Of a DNA stretch of 34,006 bases, positions 8,572 through 32,757 are shown piece after piece; the first letter of the stretch is position 1, and every line of letters begins with the position of its first letter. A model generated the notes under the pieces. It was given only the letters and a program-made list of their open reading frames with translations, was not told where the DNA came from and ran no database searches. Source of the DNA: a virus (Duplodnaviria > Heunggongvirae > Uroviricota > Caudoviricetes); the IMG/VR virus record IMGVR_UViG_2734482588_000013. One strand, written 5' to 3'. The position numbers and the translations under genes are program-made.

Positions 8572-10530
8572 TTACGCCGTACATTTCACCAGACCGCGGT
8601 GATCAACTGGCGCGACACCGGCGTCAATACGCACTTTCGTTGTCACGCCATCCACACTGAAGCCCTCCATCTGATCAATATATGGCGTATCCACACCGTT
8701 GAGATAAGCCACTTCAATCGTATCGGAGCCTTTGGACGCAGCCAGGTAGAAGGTGGTCTGGCTGTTATCATCAAGACGAGGCTCTGCAATAACGGTCGCA
8801 AAATCTTTCACCGGGTTAATAATACCGGCGTTAATGTCAGCCCCCTTGACACTTGAGGAGCGAATGACCTGGTTAGCAACAGACTCCATCGCCGTCGGTA
8901 CCAGTACGAACGCAGGACGAATATTCAGATGACGCTCACCCTCTTTCTGAACGCGCATCAACTGGCGGGCTTTATCCAGCGATGCCACGTCCATTGCAGC
9001 GCTCTCCAGTACGTTTGCATGTTTCGCTTTATCGAACAGACTTACATTATCTGTGGAGATTTTCGGGTTAGACGTCAGAATGGCATAAACCAGATCGGCA
9101 ATGGTGGATTTCGCCGCACGGCCCAGTTTCATCGGGACATCGGTCAGCATATTCAGATCATCATTGATAATGGCCTGACGGGTGATACTGAACAGCTCGC
9201 CATAGGTCGCCAGTGCAATAGTGGCCTGTTTATCTCCGGTGGTGACGTATTTATATTCCGCCCCTTCACGCACCTGACGCAGAGCACTGAAGCCCCCCAT
9301 ACCCACACGATGGGCAATTTTAAAATCAGACAACTGACCTTTCCGCGTCCACTGTTCATAGGTTTCAGGGGCATCTTCCCAGCCCTGCAGAATGGCTTTG
9401 TTCGCAACATCCAGCAGAATATTACCGAAGTCAGACGTACTGTGTGTGAACGCCGCACCGACCATCTGCATCGGGTTATAACTGGAAACCCCAATACCCC
9501 GTTCAGTCAGTGACATACGGGCATATTCACGCAGGGTCATCCCGTTGTAGACATTATCACGTTCGGTTTTTTCAAATCCGGCACGCGCCATCAGCGCCTG
9601 GCGGATCCCGTCCCCCACAAAATTACCGTTACCGGCATAAATATGAGCCGGGGTATTTTTATTGGATGGCGTGGACTCGCGCCCCATCTCGTTCAACAGC
9701 TTTTCGCGGGCCTGCTCCAGCGAACATTCAGGATCGGCAAGACACTGAGCCTGCAGCGTCTGATAACGCCCGCCAAACATGGCAAACAGATCATTAATAC
9801 CGTTTACACGCGCTTTTTGCTCTGCCAGTACCTGCGCACGGATACTGTTTTCATCCACCACGGGTGCTGCTGCCTGCACTGGCGTCCGGGAAGCTGCAGG
9901 TTCATTATCCTGTACGCGTGGAGCACTGTTGCGTGGCGGAGTAATCATGTTTCGAATGGATTCCGGCATCTTTTTAAATTCCTCTGTACGTTTTGACTGA
10001 ATACATGCCATTGCCTTAACGGCTGGCGTCACCTGATCAGCAAATCCCTGTGCCAGACATTCGGCACCGGACATCCAGGTCTCATCCGCCAGCATGGCAG
10101 CAATTTCATCGGTGGTTTTCCCGGTTTTCTGTGCATAAGCGGGTAACAGAACCGCCTCAACTTTATCGAGCAGGTCGGCATAGGTGCGCATGTCCTCCGC
10201 ATCACCGCCCGTAAAGCCAAATGGTTTATGAATCATCATGAAGGTGTTTTCCGGCATAATGACCGGGTTTCCCACCATCGCAATGACCGACGCCATTGAT
10301 GCCGCCACACCGTCGACATAAACGGTAATGGACGCACCATGTGTTTTCAGCGCATTAAAAATGGCGATGCCTTCAAAGACATCGCCACCCGGTGAATTGA
10401 TATGGAGATTAATGTGGGTGATATCGCCCAGTGCATTCAGATCACTGATAAACTGCTTCGCTGTAACACCCCAGAAACCAATCTCGTCATAAATATAAAT
10501 ATCCGCGTCACTCTGGTGACCAGCCTGCAT
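8572..10530 (-). CDS. prohead protease (ClpP/S14-like) fused to major capsid protein
   Basis: N-terminal about 200 aa carry ClpP-like motifs (NSPGGDV, VDGVAASMASVIAM, MIHKP). The C-terminal about 400 aa look like a major capsid protein. Start placed at the internal Met MQAGHQSD so as not to overlap the portal gene. Confidence 0.75.
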   Translation of the reverse strand: MQAGHQSDADIYIYDEIGFWGVTAKQFISDLNALGDITHINLHINSPGGDVFEGIAIFNALKTHGASITVYVDGVAASMASVIAMVGNPVIMPENTFMMIHKPFGFTGGDAEDMRTYADLLDKVEAVLLPAYAQKTGKTTDEIAAMLADETWMSGAECLAQGFADQVTPAVKAMACIQSKRTEEFKKMPESIRNMITPPRNSAPRVQDNEPAASRTPVQAAAPVVDENSIRAQVLAEQKARVNGINDLFAMFGGRYQTLQAQCLADPECSLEQAREKLLNEMGRESTPSNKNTPAHIYAGNGNFVGDGIRQALMARAGFEKTERDNVYNGMTLREYARMSLTERGIGVSSYNPMQMVGAAFTHSTSDFGNILLDVANKAILQGWEDAPETYEQWTRKGQLSDFKIAHRVGMGGFSALRQVREGAEYKYVTTGDKQATIALATYGELFSITRQAIINDDLNMLTDVPMKLGRAAKSTIADLVYAILTSNPKISTDNVSLFDKAKHANVLESAAMDVASLDKARQLMRVQKEGERHLNIRPAFVLVPTAMESVANQVIRSSSVKGADINAGIINPVKDFATVIAEPRLDDNSQTTFYLAASKGSDTIEVAYLNGVDTPYIDQMEGFSVDGVTTKVRIDAGVAPVDHRGLVKCTA

Positions 10531-14896: not shown

Positions 14897-15075
14897 AAGC
14901 AACTCCATCTGGCAGGTGAAAATCAGGTTTATTTATATATTTCAATTAATTGAAAACTGGTCTAATGACAGGGAGAAAAAAATATTGTACAGGTGAAAAG
15001 AGAAATAACTTTTAATTATCAATAAATTACCTAACATGCTGCCGCCGCCATGGAAATGCAAAAACTAGCCTTTTT

Positions 15076-18663: not shown

Positions 18664-19110
18664 ATGAATAAAATGACTGTACTATTACTTAGCGCAACTA
18701 TCATTTCAGGTTGTACTTCTTCCGTACCATTGATAAAGAAAACTCAATCAGGAAAACCTGAGGGGGTTTATCAAAATACGACAAAAGATAAAGTCAAAGA
18801 TGCCCTTGTGAATTACTGCAATAGTAGAGGGTTGATAATTTACAACGCGGATAACAGCAGTGTTATATGTGGTAAAGAACTGGAAGGCGGGTCTGCTGTT
18901 TTTGGACAAATGTTAATCGGCAATGCCTATTCAACAACCCCGGTATCAAAAGTCAGATTTACTATCGCTCAAGTTAATAACGATACAAAAGTGTGGGCCG
19001 ATATGTGGATGGAAACTCAAATGGCAATGGGGCAAGTACAACAAATGGCTATAACAGACAACGCAAGCAAAAACACTATCCAACAACGTCTTGATGAATT
19101 AAAACCTTAA
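18664..19110 (+). CDS. lipoprotein of unknown function (moron)
   Basis: 148-aa ORF with a signal peptide and lipobox (LSATIISGC). AT-rich, opposite in orientation to the late operon, with its own AT-rich upstream region. Confidence 0.7.
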   Translation: MNKMTVLLLSATIISGCTSSVPLIKKTQSGKPEGVYQNTTKDKVKDALVNYCNSRGLIIYNADNSSVICGKELEGGSAVFGQMLIGNAYSTTPVSKVRFTIAQVNNDTKVWADMWMETQMAMGQVQQMAITDNASKNTIQQRLDELKP

Positions 19111-20574: not shown

Positions 20575-21384
20575 TCAATGAACGGTATCGAGCAACTTTA
20601 ACAGCTCAGGGAATCGGGATTCGAAGAAATGCGGCTGCGTCTCGCGCGGATTTGCGGGACTGGTGATGTTCTTGCCGAACATGCAGCCTTTCGCCGTCAG
20701 CGACCAGAATTTTTTGATGTTGTTAATCGCGGTACGGCTGTATCGTTCGCGTTGTTCAACGATCCCTAGCTTCACCATCTGGTGATATGCCTGATTAGCC
20801 GTCAGGCGGATACCATACTGTTTCAGCAGTGCACTCAGCGACAGCGTGGGGCGACTTGAGCCATCAGGCGCGTCAGCAGGAGCATCAATGGCATAGCGCG
20901 GTGCCAGATTCGGTAAGCCAACAGCCTCCTGGAGTTTCTGACAGGCACCAAGCACTGAAGAGTTAGACAGGTTTAATTCCCGGCGCATAAAGTCCAGCAG
21001 AATCACACCAGCCTGCATCTTGTCAGCAGCCTGTCCGGATAATTTTTCCGGTGCGCTGGTTACCATGTCGAAAGTACGGATCACCTTCAGATGGAATGAC
21101 GGGCTGATCCACATTGCATAGGCATACACCAGTTCCTTGCAGACATACGTTCCCCGTTCATTTCCCCCATGAATCACACTCACCGGGTCAACACCCAAAT
21201 TCTGGGTGTTGGTCAATTCATGAACAAGCTCAACAGTTTGTTGGCTGGAAAGAAACTTTCCTGGCTCCTTGGTTCTGGCATTTGCACCAGATGCTACTGC
21301 TGCGCGATGCAGATCGTTCAGACTGTAACGCCCATAAGCATCACGACGAACTTCAATACCATCAATGACCATCAGATTATTCAT
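20575..21384 (-). CDS. KilA-N domain protein
   Basis: N-terminal MNNLMVIDGIEVRRDAYGRYSLNDL...GGNERGTYVCKELVYAYAMWISPSF is typical of KilA-N. Start at the internal Met with AGGAG upstream, avoiding overlap with rusA. Confidence 0.65.
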   Translation of the reverse strand: MNNLMVIDGIEVRRDAYGRYSLNDLHRAAVASGANARTKEPGKFLSSQQTVELVHELTNTQNLGVDPVSVIHGGNERGTYVCKELVYAYAMWISPSFHLKVIRTFDMVTSAPEKLSGQAADKMQAGVILLDFMRRELNLSNSSVLGACQKLQEAVGLPNLAPRYAIDAPADAPDGSSRPTLSLSALLKQYGIRLTANQAYHQMVKLGIVEQRERYSRTAINNIKKFWSLTAKGCMFGKNITSPANPRETQPHFFESRFPELLKLLDTVH

Positions 21385-21793
21385 ACTTCGTTTCTCCTCT
21401 TGATCTGGCGGCTGCACCCGCCGTTTTCTCGTACTTACTGATAGTGATCTCGACCTTCCCTTCCGGCATAACCGGTCCCCACTCCACCAGCATTCTTTTC
21501 ACCTGACTGTCGTCTTCCCACACACCCGCGTGGGTCAGGGCGTCAAACAGCGCCTTGTTATAGTTGTCCAGATCGCGGATCCGGTTATCCGGAGGAAACA
21601 ACACGATCTCCACTGAAGCAGGTGCCGACGTTGGTTTTGGCAGACGACGTAACTGCTCAACTATTGCTGCACACGCCGCGCTCTGGAATTTGCGCCCCGC
21701 CGCGCTTATCAGGCTCTTACCTGCAAACGCCCCTTTGTTGGGGTGTCGCCAGTACGTGTTCACGCTGGGCGGGAAAGGCAAGATCAGCTTCAT
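21377..21793 (-). CDS. rusA: Holliday junction resolvase RusA
   Basis: 138-aa ORF with RusA-family motifs (LPFPPSVNTYWRH; DLDNYNKALFDALT...WEDDSQV). Confidence 0.85.
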   Translation of the reverse strand: MKLILPFPPSVNTYWRHPNKGAFAGKSLISAAGRKFQSAACAAIVEQLRRLPKPTSAPASVEIVLFPPDNRIRDLDNYNKALFDALTHAGVWEDDSQVKRMLVEWGPVMPEGKVEITISKYEKTAGAAARSRGETKYE

Positions 21794-22116
21794 ACTTTCA
21801 GGCCCCTCTCATGTAACCAGTGGGTTGCACGCAGCCTGGCGTTTTCCTCACCGGCAAGCAGTGAGCGGATAATCCCGACCGCCTCGCTGTCGTCGTCCTT
21901 CATCGCAGTATGAAGCGTTATCCCCCGGGCCACGCCACGCTTTATCGTGATGACGCCTTTTTTCTCCAGTGCGCGAAGATGCTCCACCGCTGCATTCACT
22001 GAACGGTATCCCAGCATGGTTGCCACCTCCTGATTGGTTGGCGGGAAGCCACGTTCTTTCTGGTAAGAAATCAGCATATCCAGCACCTGCTGCTGGCATT
22101 GAGTTAACGTCGTCAT
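21790..22116 (-). CDS. LexA-N-terminal-like winged-helix DNA-binding protein
   Basis: 108-aa ORF resembling the LexA DNA-binding domain (QQVLDMLISYQKERGFPPTNQEVATMLGYRS) with no peptidase domain; ATGA coupling to neighbours. Confidence 0.55.
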   Translation of the reverse strand: MTTLTQCQQQVLDMLISYQKERGFPPTNQEVATMLGYRSVNAAVEHLRALEKKGVITIKRGVARGITLHTAMKDDDSEAVGIIRSLLAGEENARLRATHWLHERGLKV

Positions 22117-22766
22117 GCCGCCATCTCCCTGACCAGTTTTTCCGCCTGCTGGCGAACCTGCGCCAGAAACGCCTCACCACATGCCTCAAGTTCATCGCGC
22201 CCGATGTAGCTGATTGCCGGTCCCTTCCAGGTCTTGTCGAAAACAGCAATAGCACCAGCGAAGAAAGCGCCTGTCGGCACCTGCTTCTCGTCTTTCGGGA
22301 TAAACCAGGCAGGCAGTTCAAAACCAATACGCCCGCGAATAAAAGCAATATGATCTGCATCTTCCGGCCACCACACTTCGCTGGTGGCAGCTTTGATCAG
22401 GAAAACATAGCGCCCGCCTTTATCACGCATGGCACTGGCATGTTTCATGATGTAACGCATGCCGGTGATGTATTGCCCCTCATGCTGACTGGCGCGGCTG
22501 TATGGGGGATTACCAAAGGCAGCACCTTTAAGCTCCGCAAGACGTTCTGACCAGTCATGCGCCAGCGCGTTGTCTTCCGCCGTGTAATACGCGGTACATT
22601 TGGCGTTATCACCGTCGGTGAACAGATCCAGAACAAACGGGCCAAACAGGGTGTTAATTCCCCAGAAAATGTTGTCCGGCGTGCGCCACTGATCGCCCAC
22701 TTCCTTCAGTTCATGGGCTGGTTTGTTCCGCAGTTCCACCAGCGCCCGGCAATATTTATTACTCAT
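22113..22766 (-). CDS. phage Dam-like N6-adenine DNA methyltransferase
   Basis: NPPY catalytic motif (FGNPPYS) and a W/F-rich N-terminal region typical of the phage N6-adenine methyltransferase family. Start at MSNKYCRAL, overlapping the upstream stop (TAATG). Confidence 0.75.
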   Translation of the reverse strand: MSNKYCRALVELRNKPAHELKEVGDQWRTPDNIFWGINTLFGPFVLDLFTDGDNAKCTAYYTAEDNALAHDWSERLAELKGAAFGNPPYSRASQHEGQYITGMRYIMKHASAMRDKGGRYVFLIKAATSEVWWPEDADHIAFIRGRIGFELPAWFIPKDEKQVPTGAFFAGAIAVFDKTWKGPAISYIGRDELEACGEAFLAQVRQQAEKLVREMAA

Positions 22767-23260
22767 TAAGCCCCCACGTAATTCCCTGACAGATACCACT
22801 CTTCACCCGATGCAGCGCGCTTGCTGCTTTTCCGTAAGCACCGCTCACGACGTGCCAGAAAATTGTTTCGTTCTGGCTGGGAGTGGCTTTCTCGGAATGC
22901 CGCCATCCACACCGTTGCAGCACGACGGTATAACCCCCTGGACTCCAGCTCTTCAGCCTGGCGGGTCAGGCACAAAATCACCCGGGGATCGTTAGTGCCG
23001 ACATAGAAATTGCGCACAGGTTTGGTTTCACGAACTGGTTGTGGTTCCGGCTCCTGCGCTCTCTCAGTCAGGCGTGGGAAATGTCTGCGTGTATCTCCTT
23101 CACAACGGTGAGCCACACGCCCACTCTGACGTAACTTGCTTGCTGACTGCAGAACGCGCTGCCGTGAGTAACCTGCAAAAGCATCCGCAATGTCTCCGGA
23201 AGTACACCCCGGATGGGCTTCAATGAATTTCTGAACTTCATTCAAAAGACTCATGATCAC
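22766..23260 (-). CDS. PerC-like (ANR family) transcriptional regulator
   Basis: 164-aa ORF with a C-terminal AEELESRGLYRRAATVWMAAFRES motif like PerC/Pch regulators, plus an N-terminal winged-helix-like segment. Confidence 0.55.
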   Translation of the reverse strand: MIMSLLNEVQKFIEAHPGCTSGDIADAFAGYSRQRVLQSASKLRQSGRVAHRCEGDTRRHFPRLTERAQEPEPQPVRETKPVRNFYVGTNDPRVILCLTRQAEELESRGLYRRAATVWMAAFRESHSQPERNNFLARRERCLRKSSKRAASGEEWYLSGNYVGA

Positions 23261-24075
23261 CCCCTGAATCCTGCCGGGATCTGGCTGTAGTCCACGTTGT
23301 CGTAACTGGCTTTGAAGTACGGGTCCTCACGTCTGGCTGCAGATACCGCAGGAACTTCCCAGGATTCTTCGAAATGACGATCCGGACCAAAGAACGTGAC
23401 AGCCTGTTTCACAAATTGTGTGCCGCTGTTACCCATCGCAGATACCCAGCCCGCGTAGCGTTTCACACCTTCCAGCATGGTTTCGGGGTTTACTCCCTCA
23501 TTCAAACGGGCTTTCCAGGCTTTGAAGGCTGCAGATTTTGAATTGCCACCAGCACGTTTGGGATATGCCAGCCATGCCTGCTCAAACTCCGGAGAGTATT
23601 CCGGTCGGTTTGAACGAACTCGCACGGACTCATCAACTGATGCACCAACAGCTATTGGTTCATTGACTGGTTCTTTGACTGGTTCAAAAGAGTGACTGGT
23701 TCTGGGTGAATCTCCTGCACTACCCCCTGGTGCAACTCCTGCACTACCTGGTGAATTTGCTGCACCAGATAGTGAATTATTTGCACTACCCCCTAGTGAA
23801 TCTCCTGCACCATCAAGATGAAGAAGATAGATATTACTTGAGTTACCTTTTTCACCTTTCCGGGTGACTTTTTTTACCAGCCCGGACTCACAGAGGGCCG
23901 CAATATGATTCATCACAGAACGTTTGCTAATCTCGCACTGGTCAGCAATATGCTGGTAGCTGGGCCAGCACTCACCCTGATCGCTGGCATTATCAGCCAG
24001 CTTGATCAGAACCAGTTTTCGCAATGGATTACCCACTCGAATTTTCATCGCTTTAACCATCAGCTCCATACTCAT
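23257..24075 (-). CDS. replication initiator (lambda O-like, HTH N-terminus)
   Basis: N-terminal HTH (LRKLVLIKLADNASDQGECWPSYQHIADQCEISKRSVMNHI), a Gly/Ser/Ala linker encoded by iteron-like repeats, and a conserved C-terminal domain. Confidence 0.7.
   Translation of the reverse strand: MSMELMVKAMKIRVGNPLRKLVLIKLADNASDQGECWPSYQHIADQCEISKRSVMNHIAALCESGLVKKVTRKGEKGNSSNIYLLHLDGAGDSLGGSANNSLSGAANSPGSAGVAPGGSAGDSPRTSHSFEPVKEPVNEPIAVGASVDESVRVRSNRPEYSPEFEQAWLAYPKRAGGNSKSAAFKAWKARLNEGVNPETMLEGVKRYAGWVSAMGNSGTQFVKQAVTFFGPDRHFEESWEVPAVSAARREDPYFKASYDNVDYSQIPAGFRG
23705..23815. repeat. iteron array (candidate replication origin) inside the O-like gene
   Basis: Five direct repeats of about 18 bp (TGAATCTCCTGCACTACC-like) starting at 23707, 23731, 23752, 23773 and 23797, with 21-24 bp periodicity, next to a more AT-rich stretch. 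Confidence 0.6.
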
Positions 24076-24296
24076 GCTGCACCTCCGAGATGCTTCATGT
24101 TTTTTCCGGAGCGAAAGGCTATAAGCGGCATACTGACGCGGTAATTACGGCCCAGCGGTTCACAAATCACCTTCTGACATTCACGGTCAACCAGGCTAAC
24201 ACGTAGAACATGCCCTGCAGGCGTGGTGTACCACTGACCCGGACGAGGACAACGGAAAGTCTGATTGGTAAAACGTTTGAAAATATTCCGGATCAT
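24072..24296 (-). CDS. hypothetical small protein
   Basis: 74-aa ORF tightly packed between the Rha-like and O-like genes, with ATGA-type coupling on both sides. Confidence 0.4.
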   Translation of the reverse strand: MIRNIFKRFTNQTFRCPRPGQWYTTPAGHVLRVSLVDRECQKVICEPLGRNYRVSMPLIAFRSGKNMKHLGGAA

Positions 24297-25441
24297 TTGC
24301 GCCCCCTTACCTCTGAAGGGTTCAGCGACAAATTTATGAGGCAGGCCAGCGCCGAAGCATCATTAATATAGTCATATAAGCTAACAGCCAGCGGAGATTC
24401 GGCTTTTGCCAACATAGGATAAAGCTGCTGCAGCCAGACCTGATGAATTGATGAAATGTAGGAACAGAGAACGCTGGCGTTATGTGCAACGTCGCTCGGT
24501 ACAGCGGGCTTTGAAAGCTGTTTCTCCATCTGGTTAAAGGCATTGATGTATGCCTCTTTGAACTGGGCAGCACGTTTACCCGTGAAACCCATAGCAAGAA
24601 ACGCAAAGCCGTCGCGGGTTATTTGATAGCAAGGTAGTTTGCGGCCTGATGCGTCGATGTACTCACTGAGCTGGAAATTCAGCTCAGTAAATTCGGCAGA
24701 GCATTCAAGAGACGCAATTTTTTGAATGACGTTTTTGTGTTGTTTGCCGAAATAACTAGCAACAGCCAGAGAAGAAGTAACAACTTTGTCTGCAATAATG
24801 CAAAGTTCAGGTTGAACTAAGGCAGGGATCGTAGCCATGATGGCAGCCTCCGTATGCAATGGATAACTTCCACCACCGGAAACGCCAATTTCGCTGGTGG
24901 TGAACTGAGCAGGGTTGGCGTAACCGGCGCATACGGAAACCGGCGCACCTTTCGGTGCCCCCACCCAGCCCACCATAATTTGGGTATAGCTGAGTTGTAG
25001 CAACAAAAAAGACGCTAACGCGCCAATTGTCGCCGTATGCAATTCCAGGACGCCAATCCCGGCACCCGCTTTATAAGGTGCCTGAACAGTGTAACGTCCC
25101 GGAATGGCAGAATCAATGTGCTGGTGGTCCTTCACACTCAACAAAATCACGCCTGAATTTCCACAAAGGACTAAAGCACTCATGCGGGTAGTCTTTGCGA
25201 AGATAGATAACGCGCTGTGTTTCTGGCTCCCAACGAATAACATGAACATAAAGTCCTCTTCCGTCACGAAACCAGCGGTTAAGTTCCTGCACAACTCGCC
25301 CCCCACAGTCAGGTAAAGTTCTCTGTGGTTACTTACAGCCAGGTGATTTGGTAATCTGCATTCATGCCGTAACAACAGGTGTGCAGCGACACTGACCACC
25401 AGCTGTTGCGACAAACGGTTATTTGCCGTTAAACTGTTCAT
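24293..25441 (-). CDS. Rha-family phage regulatory protein (382-aa ORF; Rha domain begins at internal start 24838)
   Basis: The C-terminal 181 aa (MATIPALVQPE...) carry a Rha-like domain and are preceded by GGAGG 8 nt upstream of the ATG at 24838. The upstream 200 aa are in frame, unrecognised, and begin with an ATGA overlap to the preceding gene. Confidence 0.55.
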   Translation of the reverse strand: MNSLTANNRLSQQLVVSVAAHLLLRHECRLPNHLAVSNHRELYLTVGGELCRNLTAGFVTEEDFMFMLFVGSQKHSALSIFAKTTRMSALVLCGNSGVILLSVKDHQHIDSAIPGRYTVQAPYKAGAGIGVLELHTATIGALASFLLLQLSYTQIMVGWVGAPKGAPVSVCAGYANPAQFTTSEIGVSGGGSYPLHTEAAIMATIPALVQPELCIIADKVVTSSLAVASYFGKQHKNVIQKIASLECSAEFTELNFQLSEYIDASGRKLPCYQITRDGFAFLAMGFTGKRAAQFKEAYINAFNQMEKQLSKPAVPSDVAHNASVLCSYISSIHQVWLQQLYPMLAKAESPLAVSLYDYINDASALACLINLSLNPSEVRGRK

Positions 25442-25989
25442 GCGTTAGTTTCTCCACAGACACAAAACGCCACGACGCCCGGAGCTGCACACTCGCGGGC
25501 GTCACTCTTTTCTGGAGCGCAGAAAATTTTGTAGACCAGTGCCGCATGCTCCTGGAGCTTCGAAATTGACAGATACAATTCATCATTAATTGCTGTCTTC
25601 TCATGCGGTTCCACTACACCGTCTTCAATTGCTGAACGAATCTGTTTTGAATAACTGCCGATCTGTTCAATGACTTCCAGCAGGCGTTGGTTGATATCGG
25701 CGTTGTCCACATCCTCGACGTCAGGAAGAGACACAAAGACGCCATTTGCAGACTGCGCCACAGCGTCAGCAATGAAGTGAGTGCCACCAGCACGCTGTAA
25801 AACCATTGCCCATCCCAGCGGGAAAATCTGATCGCCATCTGCACGAAGGCGGTTGAATAAAGCGTTCTCTGTTACATCCAGCCAGTCAGCAGCTTCAGCG
25901 TAACCCCCAGGCAATGCCGCGATAGTTTTTCTGACAGCTTTCACGTACCACTCGGGTTGTTTTTCCACTTTCCAATGATGCTTACCCAC
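25438..25989 (-). CDS. early regulatory protein in the cII position (CII/CP76-like, identity uncertain)
   Basis: 183-aa ORF immediately downstream of cro in the pR operon; assignment rests on position and a general resemblance to prophage CII-type regulators. Confidence 0.45.
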   Translation of the reverse strand: MGKHHWKVEKQPEWYVKAVRKTIAALPGGYAEAADWLDVTENALFNRLRADGDQIFPLGWAMVLQRAGGTHFIADAVAQSANGVFVSLPDVEDVDNADINQRLLEVIEQIGSYSKQIRSAIEDGVVEPHEKTAINDELYLSISKLQEHAALVYKIFCAPEKSDARECAAPGVVAFCVCGETNA

Positions 25990-26242
25990 GGCTTACCTCC
26001 TGTTCCTGTGGTTTAAACCCATTCTGGTTTTGGCTAGATTGAAAACGTGCCGGATAAAGAATCTGCATTTCGCTGATTTCACCCTTAAAAAAATTGGCCA
26101 GACGTTCTGCAAGATCGATAGATGGAATTTGTTCCAGTCTTTCAATACGACTCAGCGTCGCTGGATTGACCTGAACGCCCGCAGCAACATGCTGCAAAGT
26201 AAATCCGTGCGCCTTACGCACATTCCGTAATGGTGATTGCAT
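25982..26242 (-). CDS. cro: Cro-like HTH (XRE family) repressor
   Basis: 86-aa ORF with HTH motif (GFTLQHVAAGVQVNPATLSRIER), divergent from cI across the operator region. Confidence 0.75.
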   Translation of the reverse strand: MQSPLRNVRKAHGFTLQHVAAGVQVNPATLSRIERLEQIPSIDLAERLANFFKGEISEMQILYPARFQSSQNQNGFKPQEQEVSRG

Positions 26243-26339: not shown

Positions 26340-27032
26340 ATGAACATAGGAAATCGAGTCAGACAACTTCGCCAGGCGAAGAACATGAAAATCGCCGATC
26401 TCGCTGAAGCAATAGGAGTGGATGCGGCGAATATCTCGCGCCTCGAAACAGGTAAGCAGAAACAATTCACTGAACAAGCCCTGAGTAATATTGCCAGGAG
26501 CTTAGGTGTTGATATTGCTGATCTCTTTACCTCAGACCTCAAAAGTAATACTGTATGTAAAAACAGTATTAGTGAGGATGTTGCGCAGGTGAAGGATGTA
26601 TTCCGTATTGAAATGCTGGATGTCAGTGCCAGTGCGGGAAATGGCCTTATCCAGGGCGGTGATGTCATTGATGTGATTCATGCCATTGAATACAGAACTG
26701 ATAATGCTGTATCGATGTTTGGTGGACGACCAGCAAATCACATTAAAGTTATCAACGTTCGTGGGGACAGTATGTGTCCAACCATTGAGCCAGGAGATCT
26801 CATCTTCGTTGATATCAGTATCAATCAGTTTGATGGGGATGGTATATATGTATTTGGTTTTGATGATAAAATTTACGTCAAACGACTGCAAATGATACCT
26901 GATAAACTGCTGGTAATTTCTGATAATCAGATTTACCGCGAATGGGGAATTACCAGCGAAAACGAACACCGGTTTATGGTCTTTGGAAAGGTCTTAATCA
27001 GTCAGTCACAAACCCTTAAGCGACACAATTAA
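26340..27032 (+). CDS. cI: CI-type prophage repressor (HTH + S24 LexA-like autopeptidase)
   Basis: N-terminal XRE HTH (RVRQLRQAKNMKIADLAEAIGVDAANISRLETG), Ala-Gly cleavage site (SASAGNG), and catalytic Ser/Lys motifs (GDSM...VKRL). Confidence 0.9.
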   Translation: MNIGNRVRQLRQAKNMKIADLAEAIGVDAANISRLETGKQKQFTEQALSNIARSLGVDIADLFTSDLKSNTVCKNSISEDVAQVKDVFRIEMLDVSASAGNGLIQGGDVIDVIHAIEYRTDNAVSMFGGRPANHIKVINVRGDSMCPTIEPGDLIFVDISINQFDGDGIYVFGFDDKIYVKRLQMIPDKLLVISDNQIYREWGITSENEHRFMVFGKVLISQSQTLKRHN

Positions 27033-32475: not shown

Positions 32476-32757
32476 ATGAACACCTTGTTTTTACTGATGG
32501 CTGAATTCAATACCCCAAACATTGAACTCTCAGCAATTAGCCAAAAGTACTTTGGTATGAGTCCAGCCACGGCAGAAGCAAAAGCAAACGCTTGTAAGTT
32601 GCCCGTTCCAACATATCGCATCGGCACATCACAAAAAGCAAAACGTTGCATCAATATTCAGGATCTTGCGGAATACATAGACAAAAGGCGAGAAGAAGGA
32701 CGTATCGAGTGGGAACAGGTCAGAACAGTCAAACAGAAGGGCAAAGAACATCACTAA
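32476..32757 (+). CDS. PrtN/excisionase-like small DNA-binding protein
   Basis: About 93-aa ORF at the distal end of the early-left operon (where xis usually sits), with a KLPVPTYRIGTSQKAKRCINIQDLAEYID motif. Confidence 0.5.
   Translation: MNTLFLLMAEFNTPNIELSAISQKYFGMSPATAEAKANACKLPVPTYRIGTSQKAKRCINIQDLAEYIDKRREEGRIEWEQVRTVKQKGKEHH

What the first reader, a model, noticed from the sequence alone, without database searches (positions are those of the whole stretch)
23705..23815. Five iteron-like direct repeats inside the O-like gene (candidate origin)
Seen in sequence: about 18-bp repeats with 21-24 bp spacing that encode the Gly/Ser/Ala-rich linker of the initiator protein, next to a more AT-rich stretch. 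This mirrors lambda ori inside gene O. No P-like helicase-loader gene follows, so the helicase-loading route is unclear.
Basis: partly seen in the sequence, partly recalled or inferred. Interest (0 to 1): 0.45.

Follow-up and report, generated by a model that had tools for sequence, protein, structure and literature searches.

The report
Phage replication origin inside initiator gene
The five repeats are real DNA-level binding sites (iterons) for the phage's own replication initiator, forming a lambda-style origin inside that gene in a very common but unstudied E. coli prophage type; this type has no helicase-loader gene, and its initiator ends in a copy of the tail of the host restart protein DnaT.

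Summary
Observation confirmed. Five 15-bp dyad-symmetric repeats (GTGCAnnnnnTTCAC on the gene strand) lie at 23706-23810, spaced 24/21/21/24 bp. They sit inside a 272-aa initiator gene (23257-24075, minus strand) and encode a Gly/Ser/Ala-rich segment predicted to be disordered.

Comparative evidence shows they are DNA elements, not protein repeats:
- Every relative examined has an array at the same place.
- Repeat sequence tracks the initiator's recognition helix, with no conflicts in about 100 loci.
- Some arrays are spaced 22, 23 or 25 bp, so the repeat is read in different frames.
- Copy number ranges from 1 to about 10 among near-identical genes.

Directly after the array lies a 29-nt block that stays invariant, synonymous sites included, while the iterons change. 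An AT-rich, low-stability stretch lies on the other side.

The protein is not a sequence homologue of lambda O. It is an HTH_36 winged-helix protein.

No helicase or loader gene follows. The initiator instead ends in ...SQIPAGFRG, matching the invariant C-terminus of host DnaT (IPxGFRG). Relatives with other tails almost always carry P, DnaB or DnaC genes.

Origin function and the helicase route are inferred, not shown. Verdict: a new member of a known kind, with one interesting lead.

The parts
23257..24075 (-). Replication initiator gene, 272 aa. Layout: winged-helix N-domain, disordered linker, three-helix C-domain, C-terminal tail.
   Evidence: ORF. Pfam HTH_36 1.8e-11, with DnaD_N weak and below its cutoff. 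PHROG 270 'replication initiation protein' 1.7e-88. 98-100% identical to SfV orf39 and to genes of mEp460, Stx2c phages and Stx2a_WGPS2. AF2 domain map.
23812..24075 (-). Coding region for the N-terminal winged-helix DNA-binding domain (aa 1-88). The predicted recognition helix is ISKRSVMNH.
   Evidence: AF2 pLDDT 80-94, helices 3-11, 17-28, 40-47 and 51-64, beta-hairpin wing 67-85. Foldseek returns only wHTH proteins, including the DnaD N-domain 2v79.
23706..23810 (.). Iteron array of five copies at 23706-23720, 23730-23744, 23751-23765, 23772-23786 and 23796-23810. Gene-strand consensus GTGCAGnAnATTCAC. Proposed binding sites for dimers of the initiator N-domain.
   Evidence: Family-wide evidence.
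23812..23860 (.). AT-rich, low-stability stretch next to the array. Candidate unwinding region 1.
   Evidence: GC 0.35. Nearest-neighbour stability in the least-stable 1.1% of the window. The same dip appears in class-A relatives but not in the Klebsiella and Pectobacterium relatives.
23664..23703 (.). Invariant cis block next to the last iteron. The gene strand reads AGAACCAGTCACTCTTTTGAACCAGTCAA (23675-23703), followed by a third GAACCAGTCA copy (23664-23673). Candidate unwinding or helicase-entry region 2, or a site for a conserved factor.
   Evidence: Three exact 10-mers. Copy 1 is read in a different frame from copies 2 and 3. Synonymous-codon identity is 0.95 in the block against 0.40 in the N-domain across 8 divergent phages. 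At least 120 viral contigs carry the block, always directly after an array.
23350..23604 (-). C-terminal helical domain (about aa 158-242, motif YPKRAGGNSK...FFGPDRHFEESW). A separately exchangeable module.
23260..23331 (-). C-terminal tail module REDPYFKASYDNVDYSQIPAGFRG. The last 9 aa match the C-terminus of E. coli DnaT. Proposed docking peptide for the host primosome or helicase system.
   Evidence: BLASTP gives 8/9 identity, with both stretches at the extreme C-terminus. IPxGFRG is invariant in the 74 DnaT sequences of standard length among 80 Enterobacteriaceae species loci. Association with absence of phage helicase or loader genes.

Best explanation
The five repeats are iterons. They are double-stranded DNA sites, each bound by a dimer of the winged-helix N-terminal domain of the protein whose gene contains them. 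Together with their flanks they form the phage's replication origin.

Proposed sequence of events:
1. After derepression the operon is transcribed and the initiator is made.
2. Its N-domains fill the five in-phase sites (21-24 bp apart) and build a wrapped nucleoprotein complex like the lambda O-some.
3. The strain opens an adjacent stretch. This is either the AT-rich 23812-23860 or the invariant block 23664-23703 with its three GAACCAGTCA 10-mers.
4. The C-terminal part of the bound initiators brings in a replicative helicase.

This phage encodes no P, DnaC or DnaB analogue, so the helicase must be host DnaB. The most likely handle is the C-terminal tail, which copies the invariant IPxGFRG end of host DnaT. 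It would plug the initiator into whatever DnaT's tail contacts in the PriA/PriB/DnaT to DnaB-DnaC pathway.

Shown here by computation:
- The repeats are selected at the DNA level.
- They are tied to the initiator's DNA-binding specificity.
- The flanking block is under nucleotide-level constraint.
- The tail motif matches DnaT, and phages carrying it lack their own helicase or loader.

Inferred: binding, origin firing, the site of opening and the tail's partner.
For: (1) The array is non-random. Six hits against 0.70 expected, and 0 of 100 shuffles reach that.

(2) Position is conserved. In 12 annotated phages and 114 viral contigs an array of 2-8 repeats starts about 250-300 nt into the gene, right after the wHTH domain.

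(3) The repeats exist at the DNA level. Arrays are spaced 23/22/24 (Klebsiella ST15-VIM1phi2.1), 23/22/23 (mEp013), 25/23/45/24 (L023), and 23/22/24 even among GTGCA-type arrays. The same repeat is therefore translated in different frames.

(4) Specificity co-varies.
- Helix ISKRSVM* pairs with GTGMAn5TKCAC in 60/60 loci.
- CS[KR][ST]AVRxH pairs with TGCC..GCA in 32/32.
- IDRSTVR[RK]H pairs with the GGCCC type in 6/6.
- IGRSTVKVH pairs with GGGCAGn3CTGCCC in 2/2.
- Natural recombinants P0062 and P0072 keep the N-domain together with its own iterons while carrying this window's C-domain.

(5) Copy number is polymorphic. It runs from 1 to about 10 units among proteins at least 87% identical. One example is a clean 66-bp, three-unit duplication in phage cdtI.

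(6) The repeats encode a segment predicted to be disordered, pLDDT 25-34. That is a place where DNA constraints cost the protein little.

(7) The architecture matches annotated ori-lambda. There, 4 iterons start 348 nt into O, spaced 20/24/23, followed by an AT-rich region.

(8) The flanking block shows synonymous-codon identity of 246/258 = 0.95, against 618/1535 = 0.40 in the N-domain. This includes the rare AGA codon in all 8 lineages.

(9) Helicase route.
- The tail matches DnaT at 8 of 9 residues.
- The DnaT motif is invariant in the 74 standard-length sequences from 80 species loci.
- Of 83 viral contigs, 33 with the GFRG tail have no P, DnaB, DnaC or primase-helicase homologue within 3.5 kb.
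- 44 of the 50 with other tails do have one.
- Phage 569R4 has a C-domain that by my reading of the two sequences resembles lambda O's, the same tail, and no P gene.
Against: - There are no experimental data for binding or origin activity in any member. I found none in the searchable literature.
- Within this window alone all five copies are in one reading frame, so the DNA-level argument rests on relatives.
- The strongest AT-rich stretch lies on the opposite side of the iterons from its position in lambda, relative to gene direction. It also codes for a Lys/Asn-rich wing, so it may be a by-product of coding. It is absent in the Klebsiella and Pectobacterium relatives.
- The iteron classes were defined after I had seen the data.
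- The tail is physically adjacent to the downstream PerC-like/Dam block. Its association with having no loader could therefore be plain linkage.
- No partner is known for DnaT's last residues. The 2026 preprimosome paper does not mention them.
- Prophages with only 1-2 iterons are common; P0028 occurs on 64 contigs. Some copies may be defective, or fewer sites may be enough.
Confidence: 0.75

Rival explanations
1. The repeats are only a by-product of a repetitive, slippage-prone low-complexity protein linker. They have no DNA-binding role.
For: In this window all copies share one frame and encode a G/S/A-rich disordered segment. Copy number varies by whole units, as slippage or unequal crossing-over would produce.
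Against: In relatives the same DNA repeat is read in two frames, with spacings of 22, 23 and 25 bp. The repeats have dyad symmetry and helical-turn spacing. Their sequence changes in step with the recognition helix of the adjacent wHTH domain. The half-sites are conserved, including third-codon positions (GCA five times, TCA four times), while the 5-bp centres drift.
Confidence: 0.04
2. The initiator does bind the repeats, but for control rather than initiation: autoregulation, a transcription roadblock, or plasmid-like handcuffing. The place where DNA opens and forks start would be elsewhere in the phage.
For: Iterons in plasmids serve both initiation and copy-number control; this rests on established knowledge of iteron plasmids. 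The least stable 40-mers of the window lie elsewhere, for example at 19090, 28107 and 14918-15034. Copy number varies widely, which a purely regulatory array would tolerate.
Against: No other iteron-like array exists in the 34-kb window. The only outlier site stays in place even where the N-domain type differs, so it is probably a coding coincidence. An invariant cis block and an AT-rich stretch directly flank the array. The layout equals ori-lambda, where the iterons are the origin.
Confidence: 0.12
3. The invariant 29-nt block is not a replication element. It would be a conserved junction that serves as a homologous-recombination crossover point for swapping N and C modules, or it is conserved for an RNA- or translation-level reason.
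For: N and C modules are exchanged exactly at this block. Conserved boundary sequences between lambdoid modules are a long-standing idea.
Against: The block persists with full synonymous identity across phages of Escherichia, Salmonella, Klebsiella, Pectobacterium, Aeromonas and Vibrio whose flanks have diverged to about 40% synonymous identity. That calls for ongoing nucleotide-level selection. It contains direct 10-mer repeats read in two frames. No Rfam family matches it. This rival concerns only the block, not the iterons.
Confidence: 0.15
4. Helicase loading does not use the DnaT-like tail. The three-helix C-domain would contact host DnaB or DnaC directly, as plasmid Rep proteins do, or an unrecognised phage protein would act as loader (the PerC-like protein or the 74-aa upstream ORF). 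The tail would have another role, or resemble DnaT by chance.
For: The shared stretch is only 9 residues, E = 0.01 for a single comparison. The tail always sits next to the PerC-like/Dam block, so linkage could explain the association. The same C-domain works with phage DnaC and DnaB in relatives.
Against: The match falls on exactly the invariant DnaT positions and is C-terminal in both proteins. The tail is grafted onto two unrelated C-domains, always in loader-less phages. Phage cdtI and locus L023 lack the PerC-like gene yet keep the tail.
Confidence: 0.3

Closest known systems
Bacteriophage lambda ori and O protein (with the origins of other lambdoid phages inside their O-type genes)
   Same: - The origin is embedded in the initiator gene.
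- It has 4-5 dyad-symmetric iterons about 20-24 bp apart (lambda 20/24/23; here 24/21/21/24).
[quoted passage not shown]
- An AT-rich flank is present.
- Iteron type is matched to the N-domain type, and a C-terminal module is exchanged separately.
   Different: - There is no sequence similarity to O. Pfam Phage_rep_O is not hit, and BLASTP and hhalign find nothing.
- No P gene is present.
- The most AT-rich stretch is on the other side of the array.
- There is an additional invariant block of 10-mer direct repeats.
Eru6-type replication region of Shiga-toxin phages (BMC Genomics 2022, PMC8951638; representative Stx2a_WGPS2)
   Same: It is the same module. The gene is 98.7% identical in Stx2a_WGPS2, with the same Rha/Ash gene upstream.
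   Different: That paper classifies the region by gene content only and states that nothing is known about replication of Eru phages. It mentions no iterons or origin.
Iteron plasmids (Rep proteins with winged-helix domains, for example pPS10 RepA, F RepE, RK2 TrfA)
   Same: Winged-helix initiator, direct repeats about 22 bp apart, reliance on the host DnaB helicase without an element-encoded loader, and repeated short motifs in the opening region. This comparison rests on established knowledge.
   Different: The iterons here lie inside the coding sequence. No Rep_3-type Pfam hit was found. There are no DnaA boxes nearby; the only consensus box in the window is at 10130.
DnaD-like replisome organisers of Firmicutes phages (for example SPP1 G38P, with its origin inside gene 38)
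   Same: An N-terminal DnaD_N-like winged helix (Pfam 24.3 bits; Foldseek hit 2v79), a small helical C-domain with weak DnaD-like structural hits, and the origin inside the organiser gene.
E. coli DnaT (primosomal protein i)
   Same: The extreme C-terminus ...SQIP(A/P)GFRG, covering the positions that are invariant in DnaT.
   Different: Nothing else matches (hhalign probability 0.3%). The 'primosomal protein I' label on some phage records is therefore not supported for the body of the protein.

Membership tests
Lambda O / ori-lambda type origin | The initiator belongs to the Phage_rep_O (lambda O N-terminal) sequence family | tested here: not met
   Pfam finds HTH_36 only, with no Phage_rep_O hit at E<=0.01. 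BLASTP and hhalign against lambda O find nothing significant.
Lambda O / ori-lambda type origin | Three or more dyad-symmetric direct repeats inside the initiator gene, spaced about two helical turns | tested here: met
   Five copies spaced 24/21/21/24, with 8-10 of 15 symmetric positions. Lambda for comparison: 20/24/23.
Lambda O / ori-lambda type origin | The repeats encode the linker between the DNA-binding N-domain and the C-domain | tested here: met
   AF2: aa 1-88 is a wHTH domain (pLDDT 80-94), aa 91-157 has pLDDT below 50, aa 160-215 is helical.
Lambda O / ori-lambda type origin | Iteron sequence is specific to the initiator N-domain type | tested here: met
   Recognition-helix class against iteron class shows no conflicts in about 100 loci. 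Recombinants keep the N-domain together with its iterons.
Lambda O / ori-lambda type origin | AT-rich unwinding region next to the iterons | tested here: inconclusive
   An AT-rich 23812-23860 stretch exists (least-stable 1.1%) but lies on the N-terminal side and is not universal in relatives. The C-side block has GC 0.35-0.45 in all relatives.
Lambda O / ori-lambda type origin | A P-type helicase-loader gene directly downstream | tested here: not met
   The downstream genes are PerC-like, Dam, LexA-DBD and RusA. No helicase or loader domain was found in the 20 ORFs scanned.
Lambda O / ori-lambda type origin | The initiator binds the repeats and the fragment supports replication | not testable with these tools
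   This needs EMSA or footprinting and an ori-cloning assay.
Iteron-plasmid replicon (Rep_3-type) | A Rep_3-family initiator and DnaA boxes beside the iterons | tested here: not met
   No Rep_3 hit. The only TTWTNCACA in the window is at 10130.
DnaD-like replisome organiser | A DnaD_N winged helix plus a DnaD-type C-terminal domain | tested here: inconclusive
DnaT (primosomal protein i) | DnaT N-terminal and three-helix C-terminal domains | tested here: not met
   hhalign probability 0.3%. Pfam and PDB sequence searches of the C-part are empty.
DnaT (primosomal protein i) | The invariant C-terminal motif IPxGFRG-COOH | tested here: met
   The window protein ends in SQIPAGFRG. The motif is 100% conserved in the 74 DnaT sequences of standard length (179 aa) among 80 species loci.

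The most novel reading that the evidence does not exclude
Loader-less phages of this family start replication by molecular mimicry of the host restart protein DnaT. The initiator, bound at its iterons, displays the invariant DnaT C-terminal peptide (IPxGFRG). Through it the initiator captures the host partner of that peptide, in the PriA/PriB/DnaT preprimosome or DnaB-DnaC itself, and so gets DnaB loaded at a sequence-defined origin without any phage P, DnaC or DnaB.

If so, the tail is a portable helicase-recruitment module. It would also point to the still unknown handle by which DnaT recruits DnaB/DnaC.

The invariant GAACCAGTCA block beside the variable iterons would be the fixed entry site of that conserved machinery.
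Probability: 0.3. Interest if true: 0.7.

Novelty: new member of a known kind. Interest (0 to 1): 0.5.

Why it matters
This replication module is present in 922 of 5,426 complete E. coli genomes. There it is annotated only as 'helix-turn-helix domain-containing protein'. It also occurs in SfV, ST64B, mEp460, cdtI phage and Shiga-toxin phages of the Eru6 type. For the Eru types the literature states that nothing is known about replication.

Locating the origin gives a concrete target for studying induction and toxin-gene amplification in these phages. It also gives a set of natural specificity pairs between recognition helix and iteron.

The DnaT-like tail offers a testable entry into an open question: how the restart primosome hands over to DnaB-DnaC. 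Both the 2017 review and the 2026 cryo-EM paper describe this as unknown.

Tried and rejected
- PDB sequence search and Pfam at E<=10 for the C-terminal 135 aa gave only chance hits.
- hhalign of the family alignment against E. coli DnaT and against lambda O found no domain similarity.
- Foldseek with the full model returned only generic winged-helix hits.
- Rfam on 23000-24400 gave only a chance miRNA hit far below threshold.
- There are no DnaA boxes near the array. No sigma-70-like promoter was found in 23000-24500, and one terminator-like hairpin at 23852-23867 (+) is at chance level.
- The sixth iteron-like site, at 23089-23103, was rejected as a functional outlier. It persists in locus L022, whose initiator has a different specificity, and its centre differs in SfV.
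- The 74-aa ORF upstream (24072-24296) was compared with ZF40 gp13, which occupies the same position and has the same length. There is no similarity.
- A 10-nt inverted match between 23695-23704 and 24007-24016 was judged to be at chance level.
- Literature searches for a prior description of these iterons, or for a function of DnaT's last residues, found nothing.
- The first attempts failed on a frame error and were repeated.

Full report
WHAT IS THERE

The window is a lambdoid prophage. On the minus strand runs an early-right operon:
- Cro-like gene, 25982-26242
- CII/YmfL-like gene, 25438-25989
- Rha/Ash regulator, 24293-25441
- a 74-aa ORF, 24072-24296
- a 272-aa gene, 23257-24075
- PerC-like gene, 22766-23260
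- Dam methylase, 22113-22799
- LexA-DBD protein, 21790-22116
- RusA, 21377-21793

A CI-type repressor is transcribed divergently at 26340-27032.

The 272-aa protein hits Pfam HTH_36 (1.8e-11) and, below cutoff, DnaD_N. It matches PHROG 270 'replication initiation protein' at 1.7e-88. The gene is 98-100% identical to SfV orf39 and to genes of mEp460, cdtI phage, Stx2c phages and Stx2a_WGPS2. Stx2a_WGPS2 is the type phage of the 'Eru6' replication region. The paper that defined that region says nothing is known about how Eru phages replicate, and it mentions no iterons.

THE OBSERVATION

Five copies of GTGNANNNNNTNCAC lie at 23706, 23730, 23751, 23772 and 23796, spaced 24/21/21/24 bp. The window holds 6 matches against 0.70 expected, and no shuffle out of 100 reaches 6. 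It is the best tandem repeat in the window.

On the gene strand the consensus is GTGCAGnAnATTCAC, with symmetric ends. The copies occupy nt 266-370 of the gene and encode aa 89-123, which is G/S/A-rich. An AT-rich stretch directly adjoins the array. The 40-mer 23821-23860 is in the least-stable 1.1% of all 40-mers in the window.

DNA ELEMENT OR PROTEIN REPEAT

In this window all copies share one reading frame, so the window alone cannot decide this. Relatives can.

tblastn shows the protein is modular. The N-part (aa 1 to about 140), the C-part (about 142-272) and even the last 30 residues occur separately in other phage initiators. I fetched 12 annotated phage loci, several metagenomic loci, and 120 viral contigs found by a flanking DNA motif. 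The results:

1. Every relative has an array of 2-8 repeats at the same place, 250-300 nt into the gene.
2. Spacing is almost always 21 or 24 bp, but 22, 23 and 25 bp also occur. Examples are Klebsiella ST15-VIM1phi2.1 (23/22/24), mEp013 (23/22/23), L023 (25/23/45/24) and GTGCA-type arrays with 23/22/24. In these the same DNA repeat is translated in different frames.
3. The repeat sequence differs between lineages and tracks the predicted recognition helix:
   - ISKRSVM* with GTGMAn5TKCAC, 60/60 loci
   - CS[KR][ST]AVRxH with TGCC..GCA, 32/32
   - IDRSTVR[RK]H with a GGCCC type, 6/6
   - IGRSTVKVH with GGGCAGn3CTGCCC, 2/2
   I defined these classes after seeing the data, but the partition has no exceptions.
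4. Natural recombinants P0062 and P0072 carry this window's C-part behind a foreign N-domain, and they carry the foreign iterons with it.
5. Among proteins at least 87% identical, copy number runs from 1 to about 10. Phage cdtI has a clean 66-bp duplication of three units.
6. AlphaFold2 places the array in a disordered segment (pLDDT 25-34). It sits between a confident winged-helix domain (aa 1-88, pLDDT 80-94) and a three-helix C-domain.

Together these results rule out a purely protein-level repeat. They identify the repeats as cognate sites of the neighbouring DNA-binding domain.

COMPARISON WITH LAMBDA

In the annotated lambda record the four ori iterons begin 348 nt into O. They are spaced 20/24/23 bp and are followed by an AT-rich region. 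The layout here is the same. The protein, however, has no detectable similarity to lambda O. It works like O but is not a member of that sequence family.

A SECOND CIS ELEMENT

Right after the last iteron comes AGAACCAGTCACTCTTTTGAACCAGTCAA (23675-23703), followed by a third GAACCAGTCA copy (23664-23673). The first 10-mer is read as R-T-S-H and the others as E-P-V-x, so they are in two different frames.

The block is nearly nucleotide-identical in phages of Escherichia, Salmonella, Klebsiella, Pectobacterium, Aeromonas and Vibrio, even though the iterons beside it differ. Among identical amino acids, codon identity is 246/258 (0.95) in the block against 618/1535 (0.40) in the N-domain. The rare AGA codon is kept in all eight lineages.

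At least 120 viral contigs carry the block. In all 114 of these with enough upstream sequence, an array lies directly before it. More distant family members (Vibrio D96a, mEp013) lack the block.

This mirrors the lambdoid pattern of variable iterons beside a conserved flank. That pattern is my recollection of the older lambdoid ori literature and was not checked here. The block's GC is 0.35-0.45 in all relatives, lower than the iterons.

I take the block to be either the opening or helicase-entry site, or the site of an invariant factor. A role as a module-junction recombination sequence cannot be excluded.

HELICASE LOADING

No helicase, loader or primase domain was found in the 20 ORFs I scanned. 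These were the replication-operon genes, seven early-left ORFs and three others. The remaining ORFs of the window were not scanned.

The protein ends in ...NVDYSQIPAGFRG, and E. coli DnaT ends in ...EPDSQIPPGFRG. Eight of nine residues match, and both stretches are at the extreme C-terminus. Among DnaT genes from 80 Enterobacteriaceae species, the 74 of standard length have I173, P174, G176, F177, R178 and G179 100% conserved. Nothing else in the protein resembles DnaT.

The same C-domain occurs with two other tails...SGFSEQDYGxxxxNW and ...LSGLGxMSDxFG.... All seven such loci have IstB/DnaC-like and DnaB-like genes directly downstream. Every locus with the DnaT-like tail has PerC-like/Dam genes or Dam alone, and no helicase or loader.

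Across 83 viral contigs:
- 33 have a GFRG tail, and none of them has a homologue of P, DnaB, DnaC or primase-helicase within 3.5 kb.
- 50 have other tails, and 44 of those do have such a homologue.

Phage 569R4 carries a different wHTH domain and its own repeats. By my reading of the two sequences, its C-domain resembles that of lambda O. It has the identical 24-aa tail and no P gene. cdtI phage and L023 lack the PerC-like gene, so that protein is not an obligatory partner.

Caveats:
- The tail is physically adjacent to the downstream gene block, so linkage contributes to the association.
- The literature assigns no partner to DnaT's last residues. How DnaT recruits DnaB/DnaC is described as unknown.

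I therefore propose, at moderate confidence, that the tail is a docking peptide that mimics DnaT.

C-DOMAIN

VERDICT

The element is a lambda-style, iteron-based origin inside the gene of a non-O winged-helix initiator. I found no description of it in the searchable literature. It is present in 17% of complete E. coli genomes, where it is unannotated.

Binding, origin firing, the site of opening and the helicase route remain to be shown experimentally.

Noticed in passing
window 23089-23103 (+), inside the PerC-like gene 22766-23260: A sixth match to the iteron pattern (GTGTATCTCCTTCAC, 13/15 to the consensus) lies about 600 bp from the array. It persists in locus L022, whose initiator has a different iteron type, and its centre differs in SfV. 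It is probably a coding coincidence.
   Followed up: partly
window 23260-23286 (-), and L015 2479-3018 (E. coli dnaT): The initiator's last 9 residues, SQIPAGFRG, match the invariant C-terminus of host DnaT. I found no function assigned to that DnaT motif in the papers read.
   Followed up: yes
L001 4001-4885 (phage cdtI); proteins P0001-P0042: Near-identical initiator genes differ by whole iteron units, from 1 to about 10 copies. A two-copy form (P0028) is seen on 64 contigs. Whether forms with few copies still replicate is unknown.
   Followed up: partly
L005, L008, L009 (Vibrio phages D67, D68, D96a): These phages also lack helicase or loader genes after the initiator. Their initiators end in a different long acidic tail (...GQVHQEERGGSFIDLDNGDWSSK / ...IIDMDGSDS), shared between two unrelated C-domains. 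This may be a Vibrio counterpart of the docking-tail idea.
   Followed up: no
L024 2161-3102 (phage vB_EcoS-569R4): A different wHTH initiator has its own repeats (GTCARAWTCTGAC) spaced only 15 bp apart, which encode SDPSKSDASK units. By eye its C-domain resembles that of lambda O. It carries the DnaT-like tail and has no P gene.
   Followed up: partly
window 24293-25441 (-): The 382-aa Rha/Ash ORF matches its PHROG family only from residue 61, and the SfV homologue is annotated as 278 aa. The true start may lie downstream of the listed ATG.
   Followed up: no
window 24072-24296 (-): A 74-aa ORF of unknown function (PHROG 1153) overlaps the initiator's start codon. It recurs directly upstream of the initiator in several relatives (L019-L021). 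It is unrelated to the same-sized ZF40 gp13 at that position.
   Followed up: partly
window 26660-26689 and 32713-32736: Two short tandem repeats: TGATGTCAT x3.3 inside the CI repressor gene, and GAACAGGTCA x2.6 in the early-left region. Neither was examined.
   Followed up: no
window 23852-23867 (+): A terminator-like hairpin followed by a T-run lies on the strand opposite to the initiator gene, within the AT-rich flank. Its count is at chance level.
   Followed up: no
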